A stretch of 64,000 nt of DNA from Ruditapes philippinarum (Eukaryota). The position numbers and the translations under genes were made by a program. A model generated the notes under the pieces. That model ran no database searches. It was given only the letters and a program-made list of their open reading frames with translations, and was not told the DNA's origin. Of this stretch, positions 1-64,000 are shown piece after piece. Where the stretch lies: positions 124,001 through 188,000 of the forward strand of contig NW_026855894.1 of NCBI RefSeq assembly GCF_026571515.1, given 5' to 3'. Position 1 is the stretch's first letter. Each line of letters begins with the position of its first letter.

Positions 1-27
1 TAAATCAAAATTAATATTGTTTTGCAG

Positions 28-217
28 CCCATTAGAATAACTAGTCTACCTACAAGCAGAAATATACATGAAGACACCGATGCGCGGACTCTCGTTCACA
101 GTATAATCACCTATGACTACAATAATCCGGATCATGACAACGTCACATGCGTTGTTGTCACCAATGAAGAACCGACGCTCCTTGAATTATACCATAACGG
201 AAGCTTTAATCATAACT
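28..217 (+). CDS. Gene A exon (PIRITSLPT...HEDTDART...; first half of an X-type cadherin repeat)
   Basis: tttgcag acceptor, gtaagt donor; same 190-nt length as paralog exon 32205-32394. Confidence 0.9.
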
Positions 218-7090: not shown

Positions 7091-7135
<45 letters not shown>

Positions 7136-17700: not shown

Positions 17701-20700
17701 GAATTTCACATACTGACCGGACTGACAGACAGGGTAACACTTAATGCCTGTCACCATTTCTTTAAAATGGCATGGGCATATAAACATAGAACAGGTTAGG
17801 CTACAAGAGCATTTCTGTTTCATATATTTACTAGGTAAAGTACAAAAGAAATGATATTTTTATAATTTTATGAGCATCAACATCAAACCGTGATCAATGT
17901 AATATGAAGTATGGGAAAAATAAGTAACAAGAAGTGCATGTTTAAAACTAAAACAGAAATGTATGATTGCAGAGGAACACTGTTAAAAATAAAGTAAATA
18001 ATGTTAAAAAAAAAAACAACAACAAAAAAAACATAAAAAAGTTGACCATCATTTGACTTTCATGAGTTGGAAACATGGCTAATCTTAAAATAAAACGATT
18101 AATAAAAATACTAACATTATACAAAAGGTAGTAAAAAAATACAATGATCAAAAGTTTAAAGTTTGCAAAGTGAAACTTTTGGTAAAATAAAAGAAGAATT
18201 TGTAACAGAGATACCAGAACGTCCCCCGCCTCAGGGAAGTATTATATGAAAGCAAAAAATTGGTGCTATTTCAAAAGATTGAGGCAGGGATCTAATGGAT
18301 TTTCAGTCCAAAATTATGATCAATGCTAGATCTGCAAATGCAACAATAAATTTATTAAAGAAATAAAATGAAATACGTGAATTTCAAAATATATCATGTT
18401 AAGCTTTGCCAGGGATTTTTTTGGCTTATTTTATAGCCGTTATTGGGACATATTCGCCAATTGAAAATAGTATATTATTTTCCCAATCCAAAGGAAAATA
18501 TTCCCCCAATTGAAAGTTACAAAAATATAAATATTGAATAAAGAATTCTAAAAAATCTTTGAAAATAAGGGCTTCTTTACTGTAATAGTGTTTAAATGTT
18601 TTGAAGAAGCCATCCTAGGCAGTGATTGCTTGCATACATTTAATCACTGCAAACTTTCAGTCATGCATTTTTTCCCAATTTTAACAAAATATCGCTAAAT
18701 TCCCAGTTGCATGGGTATGGGTTTATGTTCCAAAATCCTGGAAAAAATCCCTGCTTTGACCTCTTTAGTGTGACCTTGACCTTGGAGGTAGGGGTGCAGG
18801 TGCTGTTTTTGTGCCAAAAAATGACATAAAATCATCTTATGCATTGTGACTACTTGTGCCAAGTATTTTCCAATCCCTTCATCTATGAAGAAGTTATGGA
18901 CGGGGCATAAAATATAACCATATAACAGACTTTGTTACCTTTATACCTCTAAGTGTGACGCTTGACCTTGAGGGAAGCGGGGTGCAAGTTGTTGTAACTG
19001 ACATATCGTCTTATTATTGTGACTATTTGTGCCAAGTTATTTCAAAATCCCTTGAACTATGAGAAAGTTCTACATTGGACAACAATATATACCCTTTAAA
19101 AAAAACAATGTTAATTTTTAAACCTCGAAATGTGACCCTTAACCTTGGAGGTAGGGATGCAGGTTTGATGCGCATGACAACATTGTCTTATTATAGTGAA
19201 TATTTGTGCCAAGTTTTTTTCTAAAATCCTTTGATATACAAAAAAGTTATGGACCGCGGACAAAAAAATAAACCTATAACAGGCTATGTTAATCTTAGAC
19301 CTCCAAGTGTGACCTTGACCTTGTAGGTTGCGTGACCGATTGTTTGCGCATGACACATCTCATTGTTGTGAACAATTGTGGCAAAAAGTATTAACAAAAT
19401 CCCTTCAAAGATAAGAAAGGTAATAGACTGGACACGAGATATACCCTCAAATGGACAATGTTGACCTTGAATGAGCAAGTGTGACCTTGACCCTGAAGGT
19501 AGGGGTCTGGTTGTTGCACATCATGCGTCTTATTATAACAACATTTGTGCCAAGTTATTTTCAAATTCCTTCAATAAATGACAAAGTTATGGACCGGACA
19601 TGAAATATAACCCTGTAACAGGCTGTGCTAATATTTGACCTCCAAGTGTGACCTTGACATTGGAGGCAGGTGACCTGTTGTTGAGCATGACACATCTTCT
19701 CATTATTGTGAGAAATTGCGGCAAGTATTTACAAAATCCCTTTAGAGATAGGAAAGTTATAGACCGGACACGAGATATACTTTCAAATAGAAAATGTTGA
19801 CCTTGAATGAGGCAAGTGCGACGCTTGACCCTGGAGGTAGGGGTCTGGTTGTTGACATGACTCATTGTCTTATTATAACAATCATTTGTGCCAAGTTATT
19901 TCAAATACCTTCAATAAAAGCTTGAAGTTGATAAAGATTTGTTCATACATATTTCAACAAGAGGGACATGTATATATAGGCCCCTGGAGCGGGGCCAGTT
20001 TAAACCCCAGGGCTTTTATTTGACCAACTTGTAAGACACTCCGTTAGAAGATGTTTCATGATGTTAAGTTTTTACTACACACATACATGTATAATGTAAA
20101 ACAAGACCTCTGCACCACCCCCCACCCCGGCATGGCCAATTTTTTTATACAAGGGCTTAAATTTGAACAAACCTTGTCGACACCATAAGATGTTTCATGC
20201 TAAACATCTAGGCTCTAGTTCATTGGGTTTTTTTAAAAGAAGATTTTTTAAGTTTTTTACTTTACACAAATAGTTAAAAACAATGAAACCCCTGGGGCGG
20301 GGCCCAGTTTTGACCCAGGGCTTTTATTTGAACAAACCTTGTACACACTTTACCAGAAGATGTTTCATGCTTAATATCTAAACTCTAGCTATTTTGGTTT
20401 TTTCAAAGAAGATTTTTAAGTTTTTACTATATGCATATATAGGGAAATTCAATGACCCTGGGGAGGGGCCATTTTGACCCCCAGGCTTTTTATTTGAACA
20501 AACTTGGTAGACACTCACTAGAAGATGTTTCATACCTTTAAAAGAAGATACTTTGTCTAAGCTCTAGCTCTTTGGGTTCTTTAAAGGAAAATACTTTAAG
20601 TTTTTTTCTTTTGGTTGCCATGGCAACCAGCGTTCTATGAACAATATTTAGAGGTGACCACCAAAGAAACATTCTGTGAAGTTTGGATGAAATTGGCTTA

Positions 20701-23700
20701 GTGGTTTATGAGGAGATGTCATTTAAAGTAAAAGTTTACGGACGGACGCCAGACGAAAAGCGATCAAAAAAGCTCACCCTGTCACTTTGTGACAGGTGAG
20801 CTTAAAATAGTTAAGTGATCTTATTTTCCTGGTGAAAAACTGGTGGCTCAATAAAGTTCTATACATATGAGCCGCGCCATGACAAAACCAACATAATGGG
20901 TTTGCGACCAGCATTGATCTAGACCAGCCTGCGCATCCACGCAGTCTGATCAGGATCCATGCTGTTCGCTTACAAACTCTATTACAAGTAGAAACTGATG
21001 GCGAACAGCATGGAATCCTGATCAGACTACGCGGAGGCGCAGGCTTGTTCGGATCCATGCTGGTCGCAAACCTACTATGTTGGTTTTGTCATGACGCGGC
21101 TCATATTATGATATTTCAAATATTGGAAAGTTATCTCTAGTTCTTGGTGAAAGACTGGTGACTAGTTTTCTCTTCAATGTCATTTCTTTTTCTAATTAGA
21201 TTAAGTCATGGGCTTCATGAGGCTTTCGACATCACATCTAAGAACTCTTTATCCAACATTGCAAAGGGCAGGCAGTCTCCTGGTATTCCAATTTCTTTTA
21301 AGTTTGATAAAACCACAATATTTCCATTTCTTTAGTGTTTCCGACATGAAGACACATCTACATGTATCTTTCATTATCACTCCTGCTTTTACTGTTCTAT
21401 CATATAAGCGCCTCTGTTACCTGAAATATTTGTTTAGAAAAAAGTTAATTGCAAAGTTAAATTCCACTTGTAAACCCTTGCCTAGCTTGAACTTACAGCA
21501 GTGAAAGGCTTAAAGGTTTAAAGTCAAGAAATAAACCAATCAGTCACAGACACCCCAAGTAATTTATCTATTTGCTAAGCAGGCAATTTTTTCAAAATTA
21601 TTTAAATTCATAAATGTGAGTGATTCTGATAAGCTATAGACAGCTAAGTGATGATAAGATGATCATATATGTCAGATAAGTCGGAGTGCTAACACTGCTT
21701 ACTGTGAATATTCAATATTTTAATGTGAATTGTCCTGAGGTAAAAACGAAAAGAAAGCTGAATTCCTAAATACATGTCACATGTCACAATTGTTCTTGCT
21801 ATTAATTTTGTTCCTAATTTCTTGTATAAGATATTTAAATACACTGTAATTCTTTTTTATAAATTTGGCTTTTTGTGACAATAGTCTATCCAGTGACCGA
21901 AGCTCACCGACTTAAAATAAAACTGTCCTGTGTCAGCCTTTAAAACAAATCAAGAAAAAAAAGCTATTAGAAATATAATAATTAAGAAATATCATATACA
22001 AAAACTTCTAAATAATCATGTACCTCTTCCTTAAAAGCCCATGCTATTAAAAAGAAACATTTTTTCCATTTGTTCACTTCAAGGTTAGTCAGATTGACAG
22101 TCTCACATTTTAGCCTTTATCTTTCGTGATTTCATTGTCATTGACCCTAAAGCATCTTAAAATCGATATCCTTGCTGTTCACATTTCATAAATCTGACAT
22201 GTAGGCCGAACTTCTGAAACATAAAATATAATTATTATTAGATATACATATAGTATCCAATAATTATGTTAGTTGATATCAAATCAATAATTTAAGCAGT
22301 GTTTCGAAATTAGCAAGTAGTCCGAGAGCCCGACTAATAAATTTCTCCTTGGCGTTATCAACCTTTTCACAGTAAGAAGCCCGACCAGGCTACTGTATTT
22401 TCAAAGGCAATATAAACAACTGTTTTGAACAAATGAATCGTGCTAGTGAAATGTCTTTTGGGCAAGTGAATATTCCAATCTAGTAGTCCGACCAGCCTAG
22501 TCGATTCAAATCCTAATTTTCTTACACTGTTTAAGAAACAATTTGTTCAAAATTGTCCAAGCATAAAGATTTTTATAGTATACTATAGTAATTATAGTGT
22601 ATATACTGTACAGTATGTATTAAATGTTTACTATCTACTATATACTGTCCTGAAATTTCAAGAAAACAACTATCTTTAAAATCCATTTTCTCAGAAGTTG
22701 CAAAACCAAGTGAATGAAATTGCTCTGGGTTTGGTATTATTCTGTACAACTTCTGATCACAAAAGCTTCAAGGACATTTATGAGTGAGTCAGGTCCTATC
22801 CTGAAAGATTGTTGTTCAAGTTTGAAGACAATCCATTCAAAAATAACAAGTTATAGCCACTAATAGCAAAAAATAAGAAGATTTAGACATATACCTTGAA
22901 TGTTCATATGGTGGTCAAGTTAATTTAGTTTAGTCTGGTCTATTTGAAGGGTTGTTGTGGCCAAGTATGAAGACAATACACCAAGATCTGAAAAAAGTTA
23001 TGAACAAGGTTAAAGTTTGATGACAGCAATGGGAAAGCCGTCATGACTTACAATATATTTAATAATTTTGGCCCTAATGCAAACTGAAAATTCTAGCCTA
23101 TAAACACTGTTGAGACTAGCTGTTCAGCATTTTTTTCAAATAATAAATAAATGCAATGATAAAGTCGGTAACTTGCAAGTCTTCTAACATTCTTACAAAG
23201 AATGAACATATATATTATTCTCCTAATCTTAAAGATTATTTATCTTAAAGATAATTTCAAACAATATTTTATTAACTAAACAATCTATATCCTAATATAT
23301 ATGGTTTTAATAGAGGGCCTAGTTGACCTGTCCCGAGTTGGTATAGGGCCGAGTTTACCTGTAAATTCAATAATGTAAACAATCCTTGACCTAATTTCGT
23401 TTGGCTAACAAATTAGCATCTGCAAACACAAAACGATTTTGAACAAAGAAATAAAAGCATTTCCACAAACCTTTGCGATGTTATTCATTAGCAAATCTAT
23501 GTCTTGGATGGAAAAATCTCAAAACCACGAACGTTATTCTGTCGATGGTCCGAACAATGGCGGGTGTGCCCTACTTATTAGTCAACACCAAGTTTTATCA
23601 AAATTGCATCCGTTAATTCCAGAAATACTCTTGAAAGACTTGTATTGTAATCTTGTTTTTTATTATTTATATAATAATATTTTTGTTTCAAACGCTTTGA

Positions 23701-26700: not shown

Positions 26701-29700
26701 AGGCTCGAACCAGCCATATCTGGATAATAACTGATAATATCATCTCCCTATTTAGCTACGCGGGTGATGTTATGATGTGAAAAAGCAAGTAGAGAAAAAT
26801 ATCATGATGCTATAAGAGATTTTATTTACTTTCCATAGTTTGGATAATTGCAAATAAAATGTTAAAAACATTAAGAGTAAATTATGTAACTTAACAATTT
26901 GTTATAAGGGAGCACAGTCTAAATCACGCATGTACGGAACAATGCTGTGGTAGTTGCATTCAATGTACAGCAATGTTCTAATCAGCACGATGTATGCTGC
27001 AACACTTACTCTAGTTACTATAACAGGTGTTACAACAACCTCAATATGATAAGCAATGACTGCTGGAACATAATACTCTTACCGTTAGTGCTGCAGCAGA
27101 AACACCGACATTGACAATCAGCCTTCCAGGTATGATACAATTTTATAGATAAATTTGTTATTAAAACAAAGAAAAATTACTAGGACACATTTATTTAATA
27201 TATATATATCAATATCCGGAAAAAATGATCATTCGGAAGCATTTAAAACAGCAAAATTACACGAATATTGCAGTCTCAGTTTCATAGAGTCTGTACATGA
27301 GGCGTAATGACAAAGTGCATCATTCCTAAAGCCCCCTAGCACTGGCTAAGCGAGACTCATTTTGTAACATGATTGTTATAATATGCTTAATTTTTTTTTC
27401 AATTTAAAGTCAGGGTCGTCAACCAAAAAAAAATAATTACACATAATAACATTTGCAGGTTTTTGAGACATAAAAACTTTACTGAATAATGTCAAAGGAT
27501 TAAATGTTGTTTAAAAGTTTTAAAACTTAATGCGCCTTTGTTTTGCTGTAAAGAGATGGAATATTCGTAATTTTGTTAAAATCGACCAGAGGTGCTTACG
27601 CGTCTATTTGCCGTAAATGGTTTAGGTTTGTTGAACAAAATTTAAACCCCGCTTTTTAGCAGACACAGTTGTTAAAGATCAACATCCTTTGGTTCAATCT
27701 CATATACATATTACTTTTATTTACAGAGTTACACTGAGCACTATTTTATCTATATTTTACCCGCACAAGTAATTCAGTTATGCGCCTCGTGACAAAATAT
27801 TTAAAATCGTCGCCTTCCAATCCCTTGCCCAAGGGCTTTTACTTTAGATCCGAATTCATCCATTGACCTTGGTTTCATTCATAAAAGGAAGCTATTCAGC
27901 TAGCTCCAGAATGCACGGAGGGGCTTCCTCGACCAGGCAAAATGGAGAGTCAAGCCTTTTCCCTTTGATCTGAAAATTATATGTTCACATTGGAATTGAG
28001 ACAAGCCTCTCGACATTCTGCACGTGGGCATGTCTTGTGTTAAATCAAAAGTTTCATGTTAGTAAATCGATCCAGAAAACGGAAATTCTCCATATCCTTG
28101 ATCCTAGATAGGACGACAAAGAACCACTGCATAATGAACCTGAACTACTTACATGTTCCTTATATTGGTTACAAATTTACGTACGTAATACTATACAATT
28201 TCTTCATAATGAACATTTTTATAACATTTTATATACAAGCGTTTACCAGAATGAAACATGTACAATATATTCTTAGGTTCAGTAAATGCAGATAATTCGA
28301 TGAATGCAGGTACTACAATTTTAGCAACGGCATCCAAATCATCTGGTCCTGCCATCGTTCAGTACACGAAATCATCGTCAGTGGCTAACACATATTTGTT
28401 AAATACAGCGAATATGTTTGATCTGAACACAAGTAGCGTTATTTATTTATTCATTTTTTAATTAATTATTTATTTATCTTTGTATTTTTTTGTTTATTTA
28501 TTTTATGAATTTCATTATTCGCAAATTGTATCATTCCTTTTAAAAAGATTTTAATGAACAATGATAATATTATAAGCTTTTTTTTCTTTTTGACTTTGTT
28601 TTAACATTGACCTACTATGTTGTTTTTGTTATATATAAGTCTTATGAATTTAAAGATATTACACCATTACTCTTAAAATACTAAATGTTTTCAATAACAT
28701 CACCAGTTGATTAGTACAGAGGCGGCAGAGACATATTCTCAATATATTAGATAATAACAGTTTTAAGAAACATTTGCGTAATGGCATAGATCAATTAATG
28801 ACAACAAGCCATGTCTTCTTATTATTATAAATATATAATGATATAAAGACCGTATGATCAAACTGTATTACATAATTATTTTCAGCCAATGGTCAAGTAT
28901 ATGTGAGAACAAACCCTGCTGTAGAATACGATTATACGTACACTATTGGAGTATGTATACACAGTCGACGCCAACAGTCGTGTGCAACTATGACGATTAA
29001 CTTTGGTATGTAAAGCATACACCTTTGTATTGATTCAGCGGGCTGGATCATATGACATCCCGCATTTTCATAGCCTTTTTAAATCAATTAAATCTTTCCT
29101 GCGAACCCAACCAGCTGTTGGAAAATAATAATTTATGTTTTTATCCTTTTTCTGTATAGTTTGTCACTTTAATTAGTCATTACCACCAGGGTAAAAGTAA
29201 AACAAAAATGGAAGTGGTTTATGAGTAAATGTGGTTTTAATAAGTACTAACTGTTTGGGATTCAATTTCCAGTGATAATGTACATTCGATATAGAAAAAC
29301 TACAAGTACGATTTTGGGCTTAATTGGTTTATGTTTATAAGACACTCCGTTCGACAAAGTGCTATAATGTGACATGCGTGCGAGAATACCTATTATTCTA
29401 AATAAATTTTAAGACTTTGTGTACATGTTTCTGAAACTGATTGTAAAATAACAGTTTTATGAAGAGTGTAATTTGTAACATAAATTTTTATTGGATAATC
29501 GGGACATATATATTATTTATCTGTATGGCTACCGCAAGTTCATGTTTATTATCTGGCTAAATAATTTGTGCAGTATTGAATATTAGTTTAAACCTGTTTA
29601 CTTGTTATATGGCCTTGTTTAAAATAAAAACGGCTCTTCCAGATCGGGTTATATGATCTTACAACCGTTTATAATATGCCATATAACCAACAAAAATCCG

Positions 29701-37800: not shown

Positions 37801-40800
37801 CAAGTAGCAATGTACTGAGCAATTTTATTATTTGTGAGACTTTTGAAAGACCGCTTACTTTTTTATCACCACTTTGGGTTAAGACTCTGTTAAAATCATA
37901 TATTCAGTACATTATTTACAAGATGTTTCCTCAATCTATATACATTTGTATCAATTTAAAAAAATAAGTAGCATGAGCAAACAAGTCCGATAGCTTTGCT
38001 GAAGGCTAATTTAAAGTATAAGATAAAGTATTCTAGTTATAACAATGTCTTACGGGCCGTCCTTCATCACCAAAATAATGCATTGAACATGAAAATTAAT
38101 GTTGATGCAAATCAAAACAAACTATAATGCAATTCTATGCGAAAACCTTTTCTTATTATTCTCTTTATAAGGTTATTGTAAATACATACTTTAAATATCC
38201 AGAATATCTAATCAATATATGTACATGTTTAGATTTGTTATGCTTACATGGCGGTTGATTTGTGTCTTGGCGTATTTTTTTGCTCCGCGGGGCGCCTGGG
38301 TAAAGCACGAAAATACGACAGTGATCAATTTGTCGTAATTGCATGCTATTACGTTTTGCTGCGATGGCAACAAACAAAATCATAAAATTATGGCAAAATG
38401 GTCATTTTTGTCTTATGTCAAAGCTTATTTGAAATCTGGAAAAAAGTGATCCCTCGGAAGCATTAATCACAACAAAATTACATGAAAATCGCAGACTTGG
38501 TTTGATTGGTCTGTACATTAGGGATAATGAATAAGTGCAACATCCCTCACACCCCTATCATCAATGATCCCGAAGGACCAGAAACGTATAACAACAGTGA
38601 ATTGAAGTACGGGGCAACATTTTACCGATGTCACTCGGCACTTGACACCTGCTGTTGTGAAGTATAAACATCTGGAAACAAAGTGATCCCTCGGAAGCAT
38701 TAATCACAGCAAAATACCAAGAAAATAGCAGGGTCGGTTTGATTGAGTCTGTACATGAGGGATAATAAATAAGTGCAACATCCCTCAGGCCCTTGGCGGT
38801 TCTCAATTTTCAACACTTAATAGTGCTGGCATCAATGACCAGATAACACGAAAAACACGAAACTACGACAAAATGACATCTTGTAGTACTTTGCCTTGTT
38901 GCAAGCAAGGCAAAATCTCTAAATAAGGCAAGGTGACCACCTTGTCGTACTTTTCCATTTAAGGGCGCCAGGCAAACAAAAATAAGACGAAGTTGTTTCT
39001 GAGTCGAATTTCAGTGGTTTCGCCCGACATCCCGCGGAAAGTATATACACCATGGTACAAATCAGCCTCTTAATATTTATGTACACTTAATATTCAATTT
39101 GATTATTTAAAGTCTATGAACTGATGAGCAAAGAAGGGCCAGGTTTTGATTATGATGTTGCAGACACGTATAAAATAGTGGTCGTTTGTGAAGATAATTA
39201 TGGTTCGTCTGACACAGCTACAGCAACGGTCTCTATCCTAGAGAACCAAATTCCCACAATGGATAACATAAATGGTACGTATTACATAACATATAGTGCT
39301 TTGACTTAATGTATTCAAGGTAGTTCATGATGTGTTTGGCTTTGTCAACTTTAAAGGCCATGGAGTCATACTAGTATTGAGTTTTTCGTGTAGTCAAACA
39401 CAAACATGGACTTTTTACATAATAATATACTTGTATAAAGTTTTAAAACTCTAAAATGTGTTTATTCCTATAATCTTATTGTCAAATCTCAAAAGATTTA
39501 ACAGAATGACTGCTTTTACATAGGAGTATTGGACGTAAACAGAATAAAATAATCGGAAACAAATTATTTTGTTGGCTTATAGTTTAAGTAGGGTTTTGAT
39601 TTTGTGAATGCGTCATTCACTCTTTAGGAAAAGTACAGACCTGTTTCTTTATACAAGTACAAAGTATGTTTTCACAACATGCAGCAGTTATTATCGGACT
39701 ATTATGCAACATTTGCACAGTAATTTATTATTTTGAGTACAATATAGATTTGTTATCGATATTTGGAACCGGAAAACGAACACGAGGATAAGCGGAGTAC
39801 ATTATGGATTTAACATGGATTTTAGACTTGGAAAATGAAAATAAGGCTAAATGGAGTTCAAAATGGATTTGATATATTATTTTATTGGAAACGACACTTG
39901 TACATTTATATGATATTTTTATGATTTGATCCTGTAATGGTTTCTTTTGGAATGTCACACTGAACAATGATTCGTTACATGGTATAATGCGTGGAAAATA
40001 TAGCTTTATACTTTGTTTAAACTAACCACAGGATTTTGCATGTTAATGTTAAAACTACGTTAAGACCTGCTAAAAAAGAAATTAAAAATGGGATACATTT
40101 TTTATCATTAAAACTGATTATGATACAATGTTTTTCCATTGACTGCTGTGATAACTATAAAAACAATATGCTTTAAAATATAACTCTATATTACTACATT
40201 AAAGATATATTGAAATAATAATATTATCTGCTTCGGAAAGTCTGGTTCAATATTTATCTTCTTATTTTAAGCTGGAGATATTATTAACGTTGATCCTATG
40301 ACAGTGAAATCTGGGGCCACAATATTTACACTACAGACCTCAGATGCTGAAAACGACCCTCTCGTGTATACATGTAATGTCACAGACAGCTTCGTTCCAC
40401 TCCAGTGTTTGTCAGGTAAACGAATTTAATTTTTATTTTACTGGTCAATTCTCAGGATTAATAAAACGTTTTTCTTTGCTTTGTATTTGCACTTTTTTTT
40501 ATTTTGCCAGGAAAATATTTTTTTGTATAAAAACATTTTTGATTTATTTTTCGTTTGTTAACAGATGGTGTCGTATCAATGAAACGAGATGTCAGAATCC
40601 CAGATGAAGAAGGTGAAATGTATCCTATCACATTGTGTATAGAAGAAAGCGTGCACAGTCACGTGGTTTGTGAGACTCTGAATGTTAATATTTCATGTAA
40701 GTGTTTGTTAATTCAAAATTGTTCTTGAAGTCTACTATTTGAAGTTAGCGTTGTTTTAAGATGTCATGATTATTCCGCGTCAATAATCTATATAAACTTT

Positions 40801-51148: not shown

Positions 51149-51224
51149 ATGAGATTTCGGAGATATTTGGACATTTTATTCGTTTTTATTCTGTTTACCA
51201 AGACGACGTTTGCTCAGGGTAATT
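51149..51224 (+). CDS. Gene C exon 1, signal peptide (MRFRRYLDILFVFILFTKTTFAQGN)
   Basis: Basic n-region, hydrophobic h-region, T-F-A cleavage-like site; gtaagt donor. Confidence 0.8.
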
Positions 51225-54200
51225 GTAAGTATTTCAATTAAAATCATTATTATATTTTCTTATATTATCATAACCAGAACGTTTATGATAAAATGTTGGT
51301 TTCTTATTCAGAACAGATTAAAAATTTTCCCCGATGGACATATATATATCATATTCCTTAGATTATTTTAAATTAGATAACATGCCATCAGAATATGCTT
51401 GTTCAATAATTATCTTATATACCTTATTTTACATCGGAAACACATTTTTCGCTTTTACGAAGCCGTGTCTTCAAACGTGAAAAATTTAACAATTTTATAC
51501 TGCTATAAGAATTTTCTTACATAATAGTATTCAAGCTTTAAAATACTCATGTATGATGTCATGAAATTAATAAAGGTGAATAATGGCACGCATTTGAAGT
51601 AGTTTTGCTTTTTTTCATACAAAACTTTGGACTACACAAATGCTTATCTTAGGACCGTGGTCCTTACCAAAGTTTTATGTGCCTGTTAACAATATTTTGA
51701 TTTTTGTAAAAATCACAATTCTTATGTTTTTATATTTGAGATCAACCATATACGCAGTTATACATTTGTATGTGGTCAAAGTGTATTATTTTCTTTTATT
51801 TTAACAAATAATATGCTTAGTACAGTAATATTTGCTCAAAATGGCTTTAAAATATTCATAACAGCTGTTAGTGAAAATGCACCTAAGCTTCTATCTTTCC
51901 AATTTTTGTTTATTATATATATTTTAAGATAACTTAAACGTTTAAATTTTCTTAATGAAAATGTCATTTAATAAGTGTCTGAAATATAGGAATGTGAACA
52001 GGTAAAGTTACGATTTCGTTGAACAAATATCTCGGTACATTTAACCACATTTACCATGTGTTGATTAACAGATGAGTTGAGAGCATTTTCGTTGAAAAGA
52101 AATTGATTGAAACGCCAACTGAAAAAAGCACCCCCTTTAACAGAATAACAGACAGAACTCTTTTTTGTTTTTAAAATCGTCAATCTTACAGAAGTAACAC
52201 AAAATCTATTTTAAATTAAAATGCGTCTTCGATATTTATGTATGAACGGAGAAATATGATAAAGTAAATGAGTGTTATTTTATATCAATTTTTTAACATT
52301 GTTGCTATAACTGTTAATACTGAAAGCGAACTATGACTTTGACATATTAAAAAGATGCTTTGATATTTTTAAACATCATTTCTGCTGTATTTCTGCATTT
52401 GACCAAAATTGGATTAACTTGAACTGTTGATTAATACCACATGTAAAAGATATATGTGTTATATGTCGTTATTTCCCCATCCAGATAAGAATTACATAAC
52501 TTTTTAATATTATATTTCAGCATTTTATTATGAATTCTTATATGAAAAATCTTTATGGCCTAATTCTGTTCTGAAAACTCGTTTCTGTTGTTTTTTTTTA
52601 CTTGCGACAATGACATGTAATTTGCTATAACGTTTTATTCAGACAAAAATTATGTACTGCTTAATCAAAATGAGGTTGTGATGATGGCTGCCTTTATTGT
52701 TTTTAGATAATTTTCCATGTTTAAATTCATTTCAGCGTAAATCATGCACGAAAATTTGTCATAAATTATGATTCTATTCAATTCTGTTATTTAATTTTAA
52801 AGCAGCATGCCTGTATATATGTATTAGTTGTTACGAAATTTGAAATAAACTCATGTTACCGAATTTGCACTTCTACGTGATATAAGGCTTAATTTCAACA
52901 AAAATTCCCTAAAATACTAAACGTTTGGAGATGTTTCTCTTAATCTGTTAGTGACGGGGTTAATTGGCGGTGTTGATAATTATATCAATTTTTGCACACA
53001 AAAAATTGTATCTCTCACCTGAATGCGTTAACACTTTTTAAACTATAAATGACTTGTATAAAGTTTATTTCTGGAAGATCAATTTTATTCATATGAAGGT
53101 GTGCTGCTTTAAGCGTAAATTGCAATCATAGGCGGGCTACTTTAAGCGTAATTTGTAATTGAAGACGTGCTGCTTTAAGCGTAATTTGTATTTAAAGGCG
53201 TACTGCTTTATTTGTAATTTGGGATCAAACGCCAGCAATTATTAAGTATTAACAATAATTTTTTATCAAATAAATATACCATAGTTGATCAAAGTCATAA
53301 AAGTTCTATTGAAACTTAATTATGTACAAATTATTGGAATTTTACAGTAACAGCGAAATGTATATGTTTTATTATAATTTATCTCTAGTAAAGCGGGTTG
53401 CTTAAACCCCATCTTCATATGTCTAAACTACTAGTATTACTTTTGTAGTTATGAATATTTTGACAGGTTAAATTCCTCTCTATTAACGGATATTTGTATG
53501 GTTATATTGGATACATTATAATAATAGAAACAAACGTTTATTAACGGCCAAAATATCAGTTAGGAATCTTTATTAACGAATTTATTATATAGCAAACTTT
53601 TGTTTTAAAGGAAAACATGAAATTACCTTATTTCACAACAGCCGTGTATATAGCTTATATCAACGCCATGGTTATCCAACGAGAAGCGCCATAACAAACT
53701 TGCAGTATTCAACTGCGTCCGGATATCGACTTTTTAATTTACTTGTACATTGTAAGCCCTTATATGAGTTTGACCACAGCATATTTAAGATGATTTTACA
53801 ATTGTTAACACTGATTTCATTTCAGCTTGTACTGACGACAGCACAGCCGGTCCCGATGATCCACATTCATTTGACAAAGCTTTTGACGCTGACAAAGGTA
53901 TAGATAGACATTACGTCATATAGTGTTTATGAATATTATAATTAACTATGAATGATAATTAACTGTAAATACGTATAAAAGTCCTAATTCATTTATTGAA
54001 TTAACCGTGATCAGTTTTCATTTTAAGAAAACTACTGTGACACCAACATATGACAATATGCACTAACAATCAGAGGACAAATTACAAAACCAACACATAT
54101 TGTCCAATAAATCCAAAACAAAAGAAAAGTTACATTATATTTCATTAATGAAGCAATCACTAACTATTTGGCACCGCCAATATTTATAACTCTCTTCCTG

Positions 54201-57200
54201 ATATCAATAATTAAAGCTGGTAGCATACTTAAAATAAGTCGTTTTGATTAATGTTTACATCGTGTTGTTGAACTTGAATTTTAACAAAGGGTCTACCGTG
54301 GAAATAGGAAGAAATGCATTTCCAAGTTTTATGTCATCCCCAGTTTTGGTATGTATGGTAAAATAAATTTGTATGCTCTTTAATTAATCTGTCTGTGGTG
54401 TCATCCATCCATCCATCCATCCATACATATATCTATATTATTTACTTCTCTTGTTTTAACAGGATATGGTTACGTAGTATATGGTGACTTGTACAGGTTT
54501 GATTGTTGTGGTACGGTGAAAAGATGGGATTTTTCCATTGGTGACAACGGTAAAATAGAGCTACAAATATGGCGACCTGTCGACAAAAAAGGCAAAATAT
54601 TCAAACTAATTGGGTTCAATGAATACACCGTAACAAGTAAGTTCATAAATTGATTTTGGGATTTACTGCATACCAATTCTGCTTGAAATAGTATTGCACG
54701 GTCGTGCATTTTTAACGTGACGTCATTTGCGTTATTCATACAAAGCGTAAAGACGTTATTTAGCGTATTGAAAATAATATTTAGTGTGAGTTTGCATATT
54801 GTAACTATTGTGACTTGGCTTCTTATTACAGTGATTGTTGTTGTGAACGTTGCACTATAAGCGCGGCAATTCTTCTAGTCTCTCTGTAAACAGTATCTTA
54901 ATGTTTGTGCTAAGTTGAATGATGTATTTGTAAGGCTTCTTTTTTATTCAATTTATTGAAATGGTTGAAAAAATAGGCTCTCATCACATAATTTCATCCA
55001 GCTAGTTCAATAAATTTATCTTACTTCTTAATACAGGTTTACTCAAATTTTTATTTTATGTAATGAATTTAAATGGAATATTAATCTTAATTCGTAATAT
55101 ACTCATTAATTTCTTTTATGTAATGAAGTAAAATAAAAAAAAATAACATAAATTTAGAAAATAATAAATAAATAATTAAATAATAAAATAAATAAATAAA
55201 TATAAAAATAAATAAATAAATTTATAAATAAATAAATCTATTTTGTAAAGATGCACCTCGATACACTTTTCATTACTTTGTAAAAATATATTGATATTAA
55301 TATTATTTCATTATATAAAATATGAAGCACATCCACTCTCTCAATGGGATTATTATACATTACACTAGTTATTTTTCCTATCAAAAAATGATTATCTAAA
55401 ATTTTTACTTAAGATGAAAGAGTTTGCTTTTTTTCTCAAGTTGCTTGAAATGAATACTTCATCATCAATTACCGACAGCATGATTATACTTAACCCCGAC
55501 ACTTTAAATATTCACTTAAAATGAAATGAAATTCATTGAATTGTTTAGGCTATTCCTTATTTTCTTTCCCACATTAATGTTATTGCCGTTCTTACTGTAT
55601 CGCCCAGTTGTATCTAAGCGATCAAGTATTGCCCCGGAAAAATGCTCGTGTGTCCACTACATCAAATCATTGAAATGTATAAAGAAAGTAATGATGTTAG
55701 ATGATGTACCATTAAAATGTCAATTCAATATCAAACGTTGCCACCAATAAAGAATGTTGTTCCGCACGGGAAGAATAAGTTTTATTGCCGTCGCATTATA
55801 AAGTATTGACGAAAATGTACTTTAAATTTCAAGACCTGGGGTTTTGTAAATTTGTGTGTTCCAATATAATTATATATAATTGAAATAAAATCCTGTATCC
55901 GTTATTTCAAATATTTTAGATTAATTATCTATGATCAAAATTCAAAATGCATTTCAGATACAGTACTTTCAATCATTTTTGCAAGATTAGCAGTGATTTT
56001 ATAACGTGTAATATATAACAACTACAAAGTGGTAGCAAACCGAAAGTAGAGATAAAAAAACGCAACAATTTTAAGGCAAATATGATGTATCAATACAATT
56101 ATATACAAAATATAACGAGATTCTAATGTCACACGTGCATTAGGCATTAAATAAGTTAAACCTTAAAAATAAATGTAAATACTTTAATGAATTGTTTAAA
56201 TAAATACCCGTTATGAAACTAGACATTTTTCCTTATTATTCCCACAACATGATGTATAATAGATCATATGTTATTATGTTTTTATTTCTGTACAGATAAA
56301 AATAGAAAAAGTGGCTTTGTAACCTTTGATGTCCCAGATAAAGAACGTTTGTCTACTGAAGAAGATGACGTCATTGGTTGGTAAGTAAAATAATAGATAA
56401 CATGATATATGGCTTCAAAAGTAACATTAAAATTCTATATGAAAAATTCAAATGCTTAAATATTGCATTAAACCTTAACATGATTATTAAGATTAAAAAA
56501 ATGAATAAAAATATGTGGATATATGTAAATGACTTAAAAACAAAAAAAAAAAAAAAAAAACCAAAAGAGAAGAAAGAAAACTCGAAAACAAACAAACAAA
56601 CAAACAAACAAACAAACAAACAAACAAACTAGAGTCTATAATGAAAATCGATGTTTCTGAAAGTCTCACAATCGTACATGTTATGGAATACTGTCAAAAT
56701 GGTTTGTTGCATAAACGAACGATACAATTGTATTTATAACCGTAACTCTTTTATAATAAACGTTTATATTTATTTTAGATGATTAGTTAGTTAAGTATAA
56801 AGATCTAGAATACGGTAATTGAATTAAATGTTTTGTTGTGTGTATCATCATAGTTCTTAAATGATATTGAAGTATACGTGGCAGTGTGTGAGTAATAATT
56901 CTTGAAGTGAAATGTTAATATTGGTGTCAACTTTATACTTGTTTTTGTTTTGCTCTCAAGGTACGCTCCCGGGGACTCACTGATTGAGTATACCGACGGG
57001 ACTTCATATGACGGTATATGGAAAGTTGCCCACGATGATAATCTCAAAGTCGGAGACTCTGTAGATTTTAGCGGAGGTCTTGACCAAGGGTCAAGAACGT
57101 ACGGAATTCAGGCGACATTAGCACCAAGTAAATATATTTTTACTATTAGAGAAAATCGCACAGTTTTAAAGTGTATGCATGACCTAACGTTGTGGCTATA

Positions 57201-59821
57201 GTACGTAGGTAAAACCATTTTCATTATCATTTTGTTATTAGCTATTTTGTTTAATATTTTGAAGACAATAATCAATTCAAGCTATAATCTTTGCAAAATG
57301 AGATATCAGTAAAAAAGGATATAATGCATATACATTATGAATGTATATGCATTATATGACTTCATGACTTTCCGTTTGAATGATCGCTAAAAAACGGGGG
57401 ATGATCTGTTTAGGCAGAACCACTAAGCTCTCTAAGAATAGGATCGAGTCATGAGTATGCCAAGTCATACACGTACACAGTTGGTATATTTGTATTAAAT
57501 GCAAATACATGTTATACATTTTCCAGACACAGCTCCAAAATTTGATCCAATGCCGGATAAGAAAATCAGCATGGATATCAACGTGGGGACTACAATTTAT
57601 ACGGTAAAGGTAGATGACGCGGATCCAGCTGATGTGGCAGATTTAAAGATGGAAATGACTACTAAAAATGATTTCTTTATGTTCAATACCCAGACAGGTA
57701 CTATCTCTATTTATGTGCACTTCATGTAAAATTTTAGCCTGCCAATTGGATCTTCCCAGCTTTTGGATGTTAGAATAATTTTATTTCCTTTCAATATTTA
57801 AAGTGTATCTATATTAAAATATTTTGATATTGTAGAAACTCATATAAAACACCGTCTATAGAAAAAGAGCATTTCAATTGCGACTGCGAATTCGATTAGG
57901 AATTTCAATGAAACATTCATCAAAAGCCTGCCTGAAGCTAACATATAGACAATCTTAAATCTGTAAGGAAAGCTCTTGATAGAAATTGTCATAAAAGAAT
58001 TTTTCCGTGGAGATAAAATTTGATTATATTTTACCAGGACTTGTTTAAAATAATCACAAAAGAAAACAACCGTTAACGCAAGAGAACGCCTTTTTATTTT
58101 CAAAATAGTCATAATAAATAAATAATTAAATAAATGCATAAATAAATGAATAAATAAATATAAATGTCCCAACCCCTTCCCGCTTAAAAACCGTACATAC
58201 ATTTTGTTTTCAATTGTTTAATTCTCAAAATGCTCTTATTCGCAATAAACTGCATGTTCAGTTATCTGTTGATAATAAAAACATGTTTCTATAAATGTTT
58301 ATTAAACATCCATTTACGAACCCCAGGAGATGTCATAGTGCAATCGACGATAACTGTTCCAGTAGGCGGACAAACAGTCACACTTGACTTCAAGGTAACT
58401 GATCATTGTGGAGCCGAAGGCACCGGGTCTCTACAGGTCCAGATCGACTACGTTGGCGACCCCAACACAACGCCCACTACCACGAAGGCTAAGACCTCTA
58501 AGACAAGTCCAAAGGTAAAAACTACAATAACTGATAAAACTACCACCGATGTGAAAACTACAAAAGAAACTAAAATCACTGAAACATCTGTTGCCCCTGT
58601 TGCAACAGACAAAAATACAGACAAAAATGATAAAACAACCGCCAAACCTGACCTCTCTACGGACCAGGTAAGTAATAACAGAGGGATGGTTGTGTATCTT
58701 AAATTTACTAATTTGCGACAGACATTTCTACGTAAATATAACAATATGATGAATGTAAGAGAAAATGTCATTAGATTCATTGTAATATAACAAAATAGCA
58801 ACAATTCGATTACAAAGTCAAACGATATGTTGCACTTAAATTAAAACTTAATATAACAATTTTTCATATATCTTATAATAGAAATATCCTGCTATACATT
58901 GTTGTCAATGATAAGGTAAACGGATGAAGCGACTTCGGACTTTGAACGGTCTTTTTTTCTGTCAAAAATCACGTGGTATAAGTTGTCAGTCATGTGCGAA
59001 GAAAATGGTTATTGCTGGTTAGTTATCCAGGAACTTCAGCGGATTATGTGATCTGGCCGCCATATTATAACCGAAAATCTATTAAAATTGGGGTAACACC
59101 CGAATATACAGAACAAACAAACAAAAATAAAAATAACGCGTTCAAATTGTTATAATAAATCAATGATTTTTATTATTTAAGAATTAACAAGCCAAAATAT
59201 TATTTCTTTTATATGTGAAAAAGAATTCATACTTAACATTTACGACATTATCATTTAAGGACCCCTCAAATGGCACGATGAGTGCTATGACTGGTGGATC
59301 ATCTGTAGGTATGTACACTTTATGGTATATTTAGACATTAAATGATATAAAATATGTACATTTGACGTAATACAGTCAGTCAGTCGGTCAGCCAGTCAGT
59401 CAAACATGTATATTAGTTTTTTTATGTAATCGACAAGAGAACGCATACAAATATTTATTTTGTTTATATGTTTTTGAGACTCGCATGAGGTTCATAGTAC
59501 ATGTCTTCAAATCCTATCTACTATATTACAATTCAATGATGCTGTTCATTCAAATTCTCAAATTTAGATGCTGCGTTGATTGGTGGTATTGTTGCTGGAA
59601 TTGTCGGACTGATTATTATTATCGTGGTAACAGTTGTGTGTGTGGTAAACAAGAAAGCAAAAGTGAGACCATCGGGTAAGGACCCAGAGAAAGCTAATAA
59701 CGCTTCTAAAGACAATGCAAAAAATGACGCCAAAGACAAGCCGAGTCCAACGGATAAAAAACCGCCAAGCGACTCAAAGTCAACAATGAATGGAAAACCA
59801 CATGTAAAGGATAAAGGATAA
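51149..59821 (+). CDS. Gene C: 462-aa type I membrane protein; signal peptide + unrecognised N-terminal domain + single cadherin repeat + Thr/Lys-rich mucin-like stalk + TM + Lys/Asp-rich tail
   Basis: Nine exons 51149-51224, 53826-53897, 54463-54636, 56296-56380, 56961-57127, 57527-57697, 58327-58667, 59260-59308, 59568-59821 sum to 1389 nt and splice in frame from ATG to TAA. Confidence 0.88.
53095..53226. repeat. 33-bp minisatellite, 4 units
   Basis: gaaggcgtgctgctttaagcgtaatttgtaatt consensus. Confidence 0.8.
53826..53897 (+). CDS. Gene C exon 2 (CTDDSTAGPDDPHSFDKAFDADK)
   Basis: tttcag / gtatag, phase 1-1, open. Confidence 0.8.
54463..54636 (+). CDS. Gene C exon 3 (YGYVVYGDLYRFDCCGTVKRWDF...LQIWRP...FKLIGFNEYTVT)
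   Basis: aacag / gtaagt, phase 1-1, open; absent from ORF track. Confidence 0.88.
56296..56380 (+). CDS. Gene C exon 4 (KNRKSGFVTFDVPDKERLSTEEDDVIGW)
   Basis: tacag / gtaagt, phase 1-2. Confidence 0.85.
56587..56629. repeat. (AAAC)n microsatellite
   Basis: Direct reading. Confidence 0.9.
56961..57127 (+). CDS. Gene C exon 5 (YAPGDSLIEYTDG...RTYGIQATLAP)
   Basis: caag / gtaaat, phase 2-1. Confidence 0.85.
57527..57697 (+). CDS. Gene C exon 6, first half of cadherin repeat (TAPKF...VGTTIYTVKVDDADPAD...FMFNTQT)
   Basis: ttccag / gtacta; NxAPxF, GTxIYTV, DAD motifs. Confidence 0.88.
58327..58667 (+). CDS. Gene C exon 7, second half of cadherin repeat plus Thr/Lys-rich stalk
   Basis: cccag / gtaagt; FKVTDHCG then PNTTPTTTKAKTSKT... 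Confidence 0.88.
59260..59308 (+). CDS. Gene C exon 8 (DPSNGTMSAMTGGSSV)
   Basis: ttaag / gtatgt, phase 0-1, needed to bridge exon 7 (phase 0) to exon 9 (phase 1). Confidence 0.8.
59568..59821 (+). CDS. Gene C exon 9: TM helix (LIGGIVAGIVGLIIIIVVTVVCVV) and charged cytoplasmic tail
   Basis: tttag acceptor; ORF 59576-59821; stop TAA. Confidence 0.9.
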
Positions 59822-61743: not shown

Positions 61744-63037
61744 CAAGGTATGATCAAAAAGTTCTCGGCCCGATATATTTCTAGCCACTATACTGACATT
61801 TACACACGATACGTCTATACCGATATCTTATTGAAGATTACTGACCCGAGTTACACGCGGATTTACATAGACTAAGTAACATAAAACACACTTTGATCAG
61901 TAGAGGGGTGTGTCAATTAGTCAAATGGTGAAAGTTGAAATCAGAGAGAGAGAGTCGTCATTTAGTACCTCTGTAAGACAGAGATGTTCCCCACCCCAAA
62001 ACCCATGAAGACTTCATGGATACACTTTGGAAGGAGTCCCCTTCCTATAACACTGAAAAAATTGGCTGCTGAATTTAAGAGGGGCAGGGAGGCCATTGGA
62101 GATGATGAGCGGCCTGGGTACCCAAAAGAGGCCACCAAAGATGAAACTGCCGAAGCTGTGCACGATATGGTCATGTGCGACAGAAGGCGAGACCTGCGAA
62201 GTATTGCTAGGGAAGTGGGTATAAGCTTTCAGTTCAGGCAATTCTGACTGATGTCTATGGCATGTTAAAGGTTTCCGCTAGATTGGTACCCAAACAGTTG
62301 ACTGACGACCAGAAACGGACCAGGTTTGACATTTCAAGATATCTTTACTCTCGCTACGAGGATGAACCTGATTTTATCTACTGGATCGTAACATGGGTCC
62401 ACAGTTCATTCCATAATCTAAAAAACAGAGAATGCAATGGAAGCACCCTGGCTCGCCCCCCTCCGAAGAAATACAAGAGAGCGCCATCAGCAGGGAAGAT
62501 GATGGCTTCAATGTTTTTGGGATAGTCAAGGGATAATCATGATTGACTATCTTGAGCAAGGTCGTACCATAAACGGTACGTACTATGCAGACGAATTTAG
62601 ACGTCTGCGTCAAGAAATTGCGCGTTAAAGGAGGGGCAAACTGACTCAAGGCGGCTCCTGCACGACAATGCGCCAGCTCACACATCCCAAGTCGCGATGG
62701 CTGCCGCAACTGACTGCGGTTTTGAAATTTTTCCTCATTCCCAATATTCTCCGGACTTTGTCCCCTCTAACATCTACCTATTTCCGAAACTGAAACCAAG
62801 CTTAGTGGTAGACGTTTTAGAAGCAAGGAATATGTCATAGAGGCGGTCAATGAGTTCTTTTAGGTAGGAAAAGTAGGACCAAAATAGAGAGTTCTATTTT
62901 GAAGGGTTAAACAAGTTGAGCACAGGTGGGCAAAGTGCATTGATGTAGAGGGCGATTATATTGAAAAGTAAGACCATTAGTTGGATGCTCTGACTACCGT
63001 AGAACATCGTGCCAGGAACTTTTTTGATTTATCCTCT
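61744..63037 (+). mobile_element. Defective Tc1/mariner (mariner DD34D) transposon, ~1.3 kb
   Basis: TA then caaggtatgatcaaaaagttc / gaacttttttgatttatcctc TIRs; fragmented transposase with DDERPG.P, DRR, SARLVPKQLT, GKMMASMF, HDNAPAH, H..YSPDF.PS..YLF. Confidence 0.92.
61926..62971 (+). pseudogene. Mariner transposase pseudogene
   Basis: Multiple frameshifts and stops; first catalytic motif deleted (WIVT^WVH), third Asp changed to Asn. Confidence 0.9.
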
Positions 63038-64000
63038 TCAATCAAAACTAAAGTCAACCTTTAATTGAAACCAATAAATCAAAATCAATACTTTCCAATA
63101 TATAGCTTATATATCTGGAAAAAAGTGATTTCTTGGAAGCATAAAATTCAGCAAAATTACATGAAAATTGCAGACAGAAACTGTTTAATTGAGTCTGTAC
63201 ATGAGGGATAATGAAAGAGTGCAAGATCTCTCACGCCCCACCGGCATTAGACTTATTCAATATTCAACACTCAACGTGCTGGAATCAGTGATGTCGAAGG
63301 ACCAGAACAATATAACAACACTAAGCCTAGTGAAGAACGCAATAAATAGTCTTCAATATTTTCAAGAAAGAATAAATACGTGAAAGCCCATTATCAAAAT
63401 GCAATTTATTCAAAAGATATTTACATGCAGAAAAAGATATCACTAGAAGTGAAAAACAAAAATATTTATAACATATCAAATGACATATCAACCCATTTAC
63501 CAGTTAGGATGTTGTAGACATTATATGTGTTTGAAGAAGTTATCAACCAAGTTGTTAAAATTTGGCACAGCTACAGACCAGGTTAATTCAAGATATATGC
63601 CTCTGTAATAGTGTTGCTGACAATTGTTGACTTAAGACAAAAACAGCAAAGTTTAACAAAATTAATGTGTAAACTGGGGAAGTTGTCGTAAAATAAATCA
63701 CTGTTCAAGTAAATGAATTCTTAAAGGAGCTCCACTAAGGTCAAAAAGCCTAATAACAAAAAAATGACATTTTAAATAGATGAGGTGAAGCACTTAAAAT
63801 GGAAAAATTTGCTAAAGATGATAAAGAAATATAGTCAGAATTGATATGAATATCGATGTGTTCGTGCTTTTGTTGCCAGATTTGTGTAAAAAAACGCTCT
63901 AACGCTTATCCATTTTATGTAATTTTGCACAATAGAAATGGTTATATTTGCACAATAGAAATGGTTATTGTGAAAAACCCGGATAAGCAAATTTTCTACA

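What the first reader, a model, noticed from the sequence alone, without database searches (positions are those of the whole stretch)
51149..59821. Gene C: unrecognised N-terminal domain displayed on one cadherin repeat and a mucin-like stalk
Seen: a complete 462-aa spliced ORF largely missed by the ORF track. The ~165-aa N-terminal region has the pattern F-D-C-C-G-x-V-x-x-W-x-F...G-x-I-x-L-Q-I-W-R-P...F-K-L-I-G-x-N...D-V-I-G-W...Y-G-I-Q-A, beta-rich and aromatic. I recall similar LQIWRP-type segments in uncharacterised invertebrate proteins but cannot name a family. One cadherin repeat cannot form inter-repeat Ca2+ sites, so it probably serves as a spacer. Inference: a lectin-like or ligand-binding surface receptor of undescribed architecture.
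Basis: partly seen in the sequence, partly recalled or inferred. Interest (0 to 1): 0.7.

Follow-up and report, generated by a model that had tools for sequence, protein, structure and literature searches.

The report
Clam receptor with uncatalogued lectin-fold head
This clam gene encodes a cell-surface protein whose tip is a widespread but unnamed sugar-binder-shaped domain, apparently locked onto a single cadherin repeat and held out on a mucin-like stalk; what it binds is not yet known.

Summary
The gene is real. Nine GT-AG exons give 462 aa, identical to NCBI LOC132744735 of Ruditapes philippinarum, with a same-architecture Mercenaria ortholog. Residues 24-191 match no Pfam or NCBIfam family. 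They belong to a widespread unnamed extracellular module (192 clusters at 50% identity) found in cadherin-like receptors, astacin-ApeC proteases, lectins, a GPCR, tandem arrays and one bacterial protein. Its model (pLDDT 94) is a galactose-binding-type beta-sandwich, closest to the Cwp84 'lectin-like' domain (Z 11.9), phage tail modules and an esterase CBM-like domain. No ligand is shown. The repeat is more than a spacer. Cys65 is present in 54 of 55 copies followed by this repeat and 0 of 48 others; the repeat carries a matching Cys in 50 of 58 and keeps the site-3 calcium aspartates. A homologous two-domain model has pTM 0.86. Best reading: a rigid, disulfide- and calcium-braced recognition head on a glycosylated stalk, probably binding glycans. 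It is one short member of a larger family that caps roughly 900-aa cadherin-like proteins. Verdict: new variant of a known kind.

The parts
51149..51224 (+). Exon 1: start codon and signal-peptide-like segment (res 1-25)
   Evidence: hydrophobic segment seen in the sequence, no signal-peptide predictor available; identical to the NCBI model
53826..53897 (+). Exon 2: start of the head domain; Cys27, acidic loop, conserved Asp46
   Evidence: Cys27 column: 30 C of 31 ungapped rows in A3
54463..54636 (+). Exon 3: head core with C64-C65-G66 (54504-54512), W71, LQIWRP (from 54561), FKLIGxN
56296..56380 (+). Exon 4: head, ending in D132-V-I-G-W136
56961..57127 (+). Exon 5: head C-terminal part with Y146, G167, R181-x-Y183
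57527..57697 (+). Exon 6: first half of the cadherin-like repeat; linker N192-x-x-P195, D222-x-D224 (57616-57624), D227
58327..58457 (+). Exon 7, 5' part: second half of the repeat; D274-x-C276 (58401-58409), the predicted disulfide partner of C65
58458..58667 (+). Exon 7, 3' part: Thr/Lys-rich mucin-like stalk
   Evidence: 38% Ser+Thr over res 293-378
59260..59308 (+). Exon 8: membrane-proximal end of the stalk (N-glycosylation sequon at 366)
59568..59821 (+). Exon 9: single TM helix (about res 379-404), basic juxtamembrane cluster, 58-aa Lys/Asp/Pro-rich tail without Tyr, stop
   Evidence: (hydropathy peak 3.3)

Best explanation
Gene C encodes a type I cell-surface recognition protein. After signal-peptide removal (inferred), a 168-aa beta-sandwich of the galactose-binding-domain-like fold (modelled) sits on one cadherin-like repeat. 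The two form a rigid head, stapled by a Cys65-Cys276 disulfide and one Ca2+ held by D222/D224/D274 at the junction; Cys27-Cys64 closes the head itself (all inferred from conservation, co-occurrence and a homologue's model). An O-glycosylated Thr-rich stalk (inferred from composition) lifts the head above the membrane. The loops distal to the repeat, carrying D46, Y146 and R181, most likely bind a glycan on microbes, food particles, mucus or neighbouring cells (inferred; least certain step). The short Tyr-free tail would anchor rather than signal enzymatically (inferred). Gene C is the short-stalk member of a family whose common form has the same head followed by about six more cadherin-like repeats. 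Architecture about 0.95 likely, rigid head about 0.8, glycan ligand about 0.5.
For: Gene model and ortholog. Fold: pLDDT 93.7, pTM 0.90, 11 strands. Best structural matches are Cwp84 lectin-like (Z 11.9, rmsd 2.8, 140 aligned), phage tail-tip and baseplate modules (Z 10.7, rmsd 3.6, 158; Z 10.2, rmsd 3.2, 142) and the PbeAcXE CBM-like domain (Z 10.1, rmsd 3.2, 140), with many CBM32, F5/8C and F-lectin chains at Z 5.5-7. The PbeAcXE domain contributes Arg25, Asn26 and Arg139 to binding MeGlcA-Xyl (PMC9105624, passages). The Atlas's nearest named family by features is PF18560 Lectin_like at 0.86, a lead only. Domain context: relatives are fused to C-type lectin, SUEL lectin, F5/8C, ApeC, SRCR, LamG, TSP1 and VWA, or are pure tandem arrays. 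Staple: Cys65 in 54 of 55 copies followed by the repeat and 0 of 48 complete copies followed by something else. The repeat has Cys at the D-x-C column in 50 of 58, against 2 of 141 other repeats, and both of those are first repeats my rule missed. P0006's third unit lacks both cysteines. Calcium ligands: D222 51/58, D224 41/58 (N 11/58), D274 55/58; precedent in PMC7547225. The two-domain homologue P0037 has pTM 0.86, against about 0.65 if the domains were placed independently (my arithmetic).
Against: No ligand is shown for this family. Foldseek found no match at E<=1e-3 and sequence identity to the structural matches is 3-14%. The same fold serves non-glycan roles: PHR domains (Z 7.2-7.3), IFT25, a cyanophage capsid protein (Z 11.4) and a PBCV-1 capsid protein (Z 9.6). 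The Cwp84 authors say its domain lacks the usual carbohydrate site and may do something else (PMC4089489, passages). The best-conserved residues (G66, W71, R87, D132, G135) look structural. An R-x3-D motif upstream of the first strand is in 32 of 85 non-CC copies but 1 of 54 CC copies, so gene C's branch may have lost part of an ancestral binding site; R181 is also weaker there (59% vs 83%). The CC copies form essentially one branch (support 0.83-0.93), so the cysteine co-occurrence is about one gain plus one double loss, not many independent events. Four repeats (P0033, P0039, P0114, P0119) lack the Cys although their heads have CC. No coordinates were returned, so Cys-Cys distances were not measured, and the two-domain model is of a homologue 30% identical to gene C.
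Confidence: 0.5

Rival explanations
1. The head is a protein-binding adhesion tip. It takes the place of the EC1 repeat of non-classical cadherins and binds a partner protein (itself, or a long family member such as genes A and B) on the same or an opposing cell.
For: The commonest context is the N-terminal cap of roughly 900-aa single-pass cadherin-like proteins. Gene C lies directly downstream of two tandem genes that match that family's repeats. Fold relatives PHR and IFT25 bind proteins (PMC4089489 passages). The CC branch mostly lacks the R-x3-D motif.
Against: Free copies occur in tandem arrays and beside established lectin modules. The highest Z-scores lie with microbial surface and carbohydrate-associated modules rather than PHR.
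Confidence: 0.3
2. The protein is a mainly structural surface or mucus component. The head is a stable, protease-resistant cap or matrix/mineral anchor with no specific ligand, and the ectodomain may be shed from the stalk.
For: Res 26-190 are 15% Asp. Conserved positions are mostly core residues. Fold relatives include capsid proteins. The tail has no Tyr.
Against: The head is the most conserved extracellular part between two clams (129/168 vs 47/86 in the stalk), loops included. The module is reused at exposed ends of many unrelated receptors and proteases.
Confidence: 0.17
3. The gene model is an artefact or a truncated pseudogene of the long cadherin-like family.
For: No transcript evidence could be seen. 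A second partial Ruditapes model (P0003, LOC132740630) omits the exon-6 segment.
Against: Open 462-aa frame, canonical splice sites, a full-length ortholog and two more distant same-architecture proteins in one clade (support 0.84-0.94).
Confidence: 0.03

Closest known systems
Cwp84 lectin-like domain (PDB 4CI7; Pfam PF18560 Lectin_like)
   Same: Best structural match: Z 11.9, rmsd 2.8, 140 of 169 residues aligned; nearest named Atlas family, 0.86; extracellular accessory module of about 165 aa.
   Different: 11% identity; no PF18560 hit in 50 of 50 members at E<=1; bacterial and tied to a cysteine protease; sugar binding not shown there either (PMC4089489, passages).
CBM-like domain of FjoAcXE-type acetyl xylan esterases (7TOG/7TOH) and phage tail carbohydrate-binding-like modules (Bxb1, Douge, phi812)
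   Same: Z 9.9-10.7, 140-158 residues aligned, rmsd 3.2-3.6; in PbeAcXE the domain contacts an acidic sugar through Arg and Asn (PMC9105624, passages).
   Different: 7-12% identity; the PbeAcXE site is shared with a catalytic domain; residue-level equivalence could not be checked.
PHR domain (PF08005) and DUF4082 (PF13313)
   Same: Same beta-sandwich family: PHR Z 7.2-7.3, rmsd 3.5-4.0, 127-137 aligned; DUF4082 TM 0.62.
   Different: PHR occurs in intracellular proteins (recalled); no Pfam match to either.
CDHR5 / mucin-like protocadherin
   Same: Cadherin repeat(s) + mucin-like domain + TM + tail (PMC8691648, passages).
   Different: CDHR5 has 4 EC repeats and binds through its N-terminal repeats; gene C has one repeat capped by an unrelated beta-sandwich.
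Staphylococcus aureus SraP (analogy only)
   Same: A lectin module is projected outward by a rigid stem that includes cadherin-like modules, in a serine-rich repeat glycoprotein (PMC4047093, abstract); top Foldseek row for the two-domain homologue (E 5.3e-6).
   Different: Legume-type lectin fold, bacterial; TM-score only 0.33 with rmsd 21 A, so the match rests on the cadherin-like part; convergent, not homologous as a whole.

Membership tests
Cadherin superfamily (2 or more EC repeats with Ca2+ linkers; definition recalled) | EC-fold repeat | tested here: met
   PF00028 E 8e-4 on res 210-288, below cut-off; ortholog E 1.2e-5; the homologue's model matches cadherin structures
Cadherin superfamily | At least two tandem EC repeats | tested here: not met
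   One repeat only; res 293-378 are a Ser/Thr-rich stalk
Cadherin superfamily | Canonical three-Ca2+ linker (XEX, DRE, DXNDN, DXD, XDX; PMC5120219 and PMC7547225 passages) | tested here: not met
   DXD (D222-x-D224) and XDX (D274) present, linker reduced to P-N-x-x-P; XEX, DRE and a C-terminal DXNDN absent. Compatible with site 3 only.
Classical cadherins / protocadherins | Conserved cytoplasmic domain | tested here: not met
   No cadherin cytoplasmic family at its cut-off; PF08374 E 2e-4 below cut-off on exon 9 alone, absent for the whole protein
PF18560 Lectin_like (Cwp84-type) | Profile match at the curated cut-off | tested here: not met
   0 of 50 members of A2 at E<=1; none
PF18560 Lectin_like (Cwp84-type) | Same beta-sandwich fold | tested here: met
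   Z 11.9, rmsd 2.8, 140 aligned; Z 12.0
PF18560 Lectin_like (Cwp84-type) | Bound structural Ca2+ in the domain | not testable with these tools
   No coordinates or residue-level structural alignment returned
PHR (PF08005) / DUF4082 (PF13313) | Profile match | tested here: not met
   no hit; Atlas feature scores 0.84, leads only
F-type lectins / CBM32 / F5-8 type C (galactose-binding domain-like) | Shared jelly-roll fold | tested here: inconclusive
   Z 5.5-7.0 over 100-115 residues, rmsd about 3, in the range the tool calls common; one of 50 members hits CBM32 at E 0.034
Lectins (any) | Demonstrated carbohydrate binding | not testable with these tools
   Needs a glycan array or calorimetry
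C1q / TNF-like jelly roll | C1q/TNF fold and trimer | tested here: inconclusive
CDHR5-type mucin protocadherins | 4 EC repeats before the mucin-like domain | tested here: not met
   One repeat; definition from PMC8691648 passages

The most novel reading that the evidence does not exclude
The head is the founding member of an uncatalogued, ancient lectin family related to bacterial and phage surface modules. It is deployed across invertebrates in tandem arrays, proteases and receptors, and one branch became covalently stapled to a cadherin-like repeat, giving a large class of glycan-reading 'lectin-cadherins'. Gene C would be the minimal, most tractable member of that class.
Probability: 0.35. 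Interest if true: 0.75.

Novelty: new variant of a known kind. Interest (0 to 1): 0.52.

Why it matters
The module sits unnamed in many invertebrate surface receptors, secreted proteases and arrays, so these proteins are annotated only by their other domains or as 'uncharacterized'. Naming it and finding its ligand would explain a part of many proteins at once. If it binds glycans, it adds a lectin family to invertebrate recognition (immunity, particle sorting, adhesion). It would also show a cadherin-like class whose tip is a different fold, fixed to the first repeat by a disulfide and a single calcium. Gene C is small and single-headed, so it is a convenient construct for that test. The fold and the general plan (binding domain on a mucin stalk) are known, which limits the surprise.

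Tried and rejected
Family libraries on the head. Pfam: 122 of 152 fetched proteins scanned whole plus the 50 rows of A2. Only sub-threshold hits touched the domain (AIM24 E 7e-4, Amidase_6 0.003, Ig_CYK3_C 0.003, DUF7323 in 3 of 50 at best 0.021). NCBIfam: 9 proteins, nothing on the domain above cut-off. PHROGs: 37 proteins; P0107 hit a tail-fibre family at E 8.8e-12 and P0004, P0014 and P0107 hit unknown-function families at about 4-8e-6, but tblastn of P0107 against 50,697 phage records found nothing, so I treat the phage link as weak. PDB sequence search with the domain profile gave one hit at E 0.22; the search with A1 was swamped by cadherin columns. My recalled lead of a C1q/TNF-like fold was not borne out (absence only, not exclusion). 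A second head in the window: none by tblastn, motif scan or HMM over 2,897 six-frame segments; the noisy stretch near 9.5-13.9 kb cannot be excluded. P0009 (5,306 aa) was a phmmer hit but had no domain under my HMM and was dropped. Literature: ten searches found no paper naming the three gene ids or describing this domain in animals. These are word searches of open-access text; I opened no supplements, and subscription papers and supplementary domain tables could hold a description. PMC10855680 and PMC11766507 (passages) had nothing on it.
Full report
1. Observation. Nine plus-strand exons between 51149 and 59821 splice in phase, with GT-AG at 8 of 8 introns, into 462 codons with no internal stop. 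A search with exon 3 returned two proteins of 22 candidates: P0001 (NCBI LOC132744735, Ruditapes philippinarum, 462 aa) and P0002 (Mercenaria mercenaria LOC123559263, 487 aa). Identity to the ortholog is 8/23 in the signal segment, 129/168 in the head, 66/101 in the repeat, 47/86 in the stalk, 23/26 in the TM and 36/58 in the tail. All quoted motifs are present. Expression was not testable.

2. The head is a real, widespread, unnamed domain. phmmer with res 24-192 against 1.84 billion representatives gave 192 hits at E<=1e-3 and 39 at 1e-10; I received the best 150. An HMM iterated on those found 196 copies in 150 of 151 proteins, 29 with several copies. Reversed proteins scored at best 7.4 bits. 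Pfam scans of 122 of 152 proteins and of the 50 rows of a domain alignment found no family on it at cut-off; NCBIfam found none in 9 proteins. The Atlas's 30 nearest clusters by features have no common Pfam family; the best three score 0.93-0.94, with commonest taxa Annelida and Porifera on few records.

Contexts, are: N-terminal cap of roughly 800-1100-aa single-pass cadherin-like proteins (and one of 3,565 aa); C-terminal repeats of astacin-ApeC-CUB-kringle proteins, most also with C-lectin and sushi domains (one named, Patella vulgata); LamG/SRCR/TIG proteins; TSP1, SUEL and VWA proteins; HYR, C-lectin and F5/8C proteins; an LDLa-CUB-LRR-7TM receptor; and pure tandem arrays of 3-5 copies. 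One member, P0027, is encoded without introns in a deltaproteobacterial genome (L001).

3. Fold. AlphaFold2 with 70 sequences gave pLDDT 93.7 and pTM 0.90, with 11 strands and one short helix. Foldseek had no match at E<=1e-3. VIA-align against 48,161 chains found 7 at Z>=8: Cwp84 lectin-like domain (Z 11.9, rmsd 2.8, 140 aligned), a cyanophage A4 capsid chain (11.4, 3.7, 153), Bxb1 tail tip (10.7, 3.6, 158), phi812 baseplate (10.2, 3.2, 142), PbeAcXE (10.1, 3.2, 140), a PBCV-1 capsid chain (9.6, 3.1, 133) and a polyvinyl alcohol esterase (9.5, 3.4, 143). PHR domains follow at 7.2-7.3 and CBM32, F5/8C, F-lectin and IFT25 at 5.5-7. One search agrees. Function does not follow from this. The Cwp84 paper calls its domain putative and notes that the usual carbohydrate site seems absent (PMC4089489, passages). 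In PbeAcXE the domain supplies Arg25, Asn26 and Arg139 to bind MeGlcA-Xyl (PMC9105624, passages). Two phage papers read Cwp84-like modules as possible receptor-binding sites (PMC11406892 and PMC13433997, passages).

4. The repeat is part of the head. Of 196 copies, 183 had the C-C-G columns filled; 80 of these were truncated or at a protein end and were set aside. Cys65 was present in 54 of 55 copies followed by the repeat (52 proteins) and in 0 of 48 followed by something else. The adjacent repeat has Cys at the D-x-C column in 50 of 58. Of the other eight, three are truncated, one is P0006's third unit, which lacks Cys65 too, and four lack it despite CC (P0033 and P0039 look like models that skip that segment). 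Other repeats have it in 2 of 141, both first repeats my rule missed. This points to a C65-C276 disulfide, leaving C27-C64 (Cys27 column 30 of 31 ungapped rows). Caveat: CC copies form essentially one branch (support 0.93; 0.83 with three non-CC intruders after removing the Cys and linker columns), so this is about one gain and one double loss.

The repeat keeps D222 (51/58), D224 (41/58, N in 11) and D274 (55/58). These are the DXD and XDX motifs that the second repeat supplies in a cadherin linker (PMC5120219, passages). In PCDH15 EC5-6, where the upstream motifs are lost and the linker is PPNNQ, one Ca2+ still binds at site 3 (PMC7547225, passages). A 263-aa homologue made of exactly these two domains (P0037, 30% identical) folded with pLDDT 93.3 and pTM 0.86. 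By my arithmetic, independent domains would give about 0.65. Its repeat matches cadherin structures. Distances could not be measured.

5. Gene C within the family. P0001, P0002, P0008 and P0022 form a clade (support 0.94 and 0.84), and all have head + one repeat + stalk + TM. The stalk is Ser/Thr-rich in three and short and Pro-rich in P0022. P0126 has the same plan but groups elsewhere. The trees were FastTree on 135 near-complete copies and do not tell whether the short form is ancestral or derived. The upstream genes A and B are paralogues of each other and match the repeats of the long family (best E 3e-36), so gene C ends a family cluster. No head was detectable in them within the window. 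A's 5' end lies outside the window and part of the A-B interval is error-rich.

6. Mechanism. Shown: gene, architecture, family, conservation. Modelled: fold and two-domain rigidity. Inferred: disulfides, calcium, O-glycosylation, ligand. From the strand order, D46, Y146 and R181 lie at the end away from the repeat (inference without coordinates). They are conserved across the family, which fits a sugar site but also a loop-stapling role. Against a sugar site, the R-x3-D motif of the non-CC copies (32 of 85) is nearly absent from the CC branch (1 of 54; 139 of 196 copies scored). The tail has no Tyr and no cadherin cytoplasmic domain. That a basic juxtamembrane cluster can bind ERM-type linkers is recalled, not tested. 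I give glycan recognition 0.5, protein adhesion 0.3, a structural role 0.17 and artefact 0.03.

7. Comparison and novelty. It is not a cadherin by the multi-repeat definition, nor a member of PF18560, PHR or DUF4082 by profile. It works like a stalked recognition receptor. CDHR5 (PMC8691648, passages) and SraP (PMC4047093, abstract only) are analogies. Ten word searches found no description of the domain in animals; this covers open-access text only and I opened no supplements. What is new is an uncatalogued domain family of known fold and its stapled fusion to a cadherin-like repeat. The function is unproven. Verdict: new variant of a known kind, interest 0.52.

Noticed in passing
window 1-12300 and about 14500-45860 (+): Genes A and B are tandem paralogues (exons 75-96% identical, introns not alignable) of multi-repeat cadherin-like TM proteins with an internal duplication of repeat blocks. 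They match the repeats of the family that elsewhere starts with gene C's head, but no head was found in them.
   Followed up: partly
window about 9500-13900: A homopolymer-rich, error-like stretch holds a degraded copy of gene B's large terminal exon (tblastx E 1.8e-10). It looks like unpolished sequence rather than a true pseudogene.
   Followed up: partly
window about 61960-62900 (+): Frameshifted, stop-containing remains resembling a mariner/Tc1-type transposase (motifs recalled; Pfam gave no supporting hit on three fragments).
   Followed up: partly
window 51218 vs 51224: Two in-phase splice donors 6 nt apart at the end of exon 1 give 460 or 462 aa, differing just after the signal segment.
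   Followed up: partly
P0003 (LOC132740630, partial): A second Ruditapes model, 96% identical in the head, that omits the exon-6 segment; probably the other haplotype or a model error.
   Followed up: no
P0004, P0005, P0014, P0084, P0107: Proteins made almost wholly of 3-5 tandem copies of the domain. Several have an R-x3-D motif (R-x3-D-x-W in P0084 and P0107) and are the best candidates for true lectins; P0107 hits a phage tail-fibre profile at E 8.8e-12.
   Followed up: partly
L001 (P0027): A deltaproteobacterial protein with two copies of the domain among thrombospondin type 3 repeats and a hexapeptide-repeat C-terminus.
   Followed up: partly
P0139: An LDLa-CUB-C-lectin-LRR-7TM receptor (GRL101-like, name recalled) carries one copy of the domain in its ectodomain.
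   Followed up: no
window 18750-19920, 20865-21106, 27200-27335, 38420-38840, 63098-63291: A tandem array of about 180-bp units, a 243-bp inverted repeat (83% identity) and a dispersed repeat of about 130 bp in introns and flanks.
   Followed up: no
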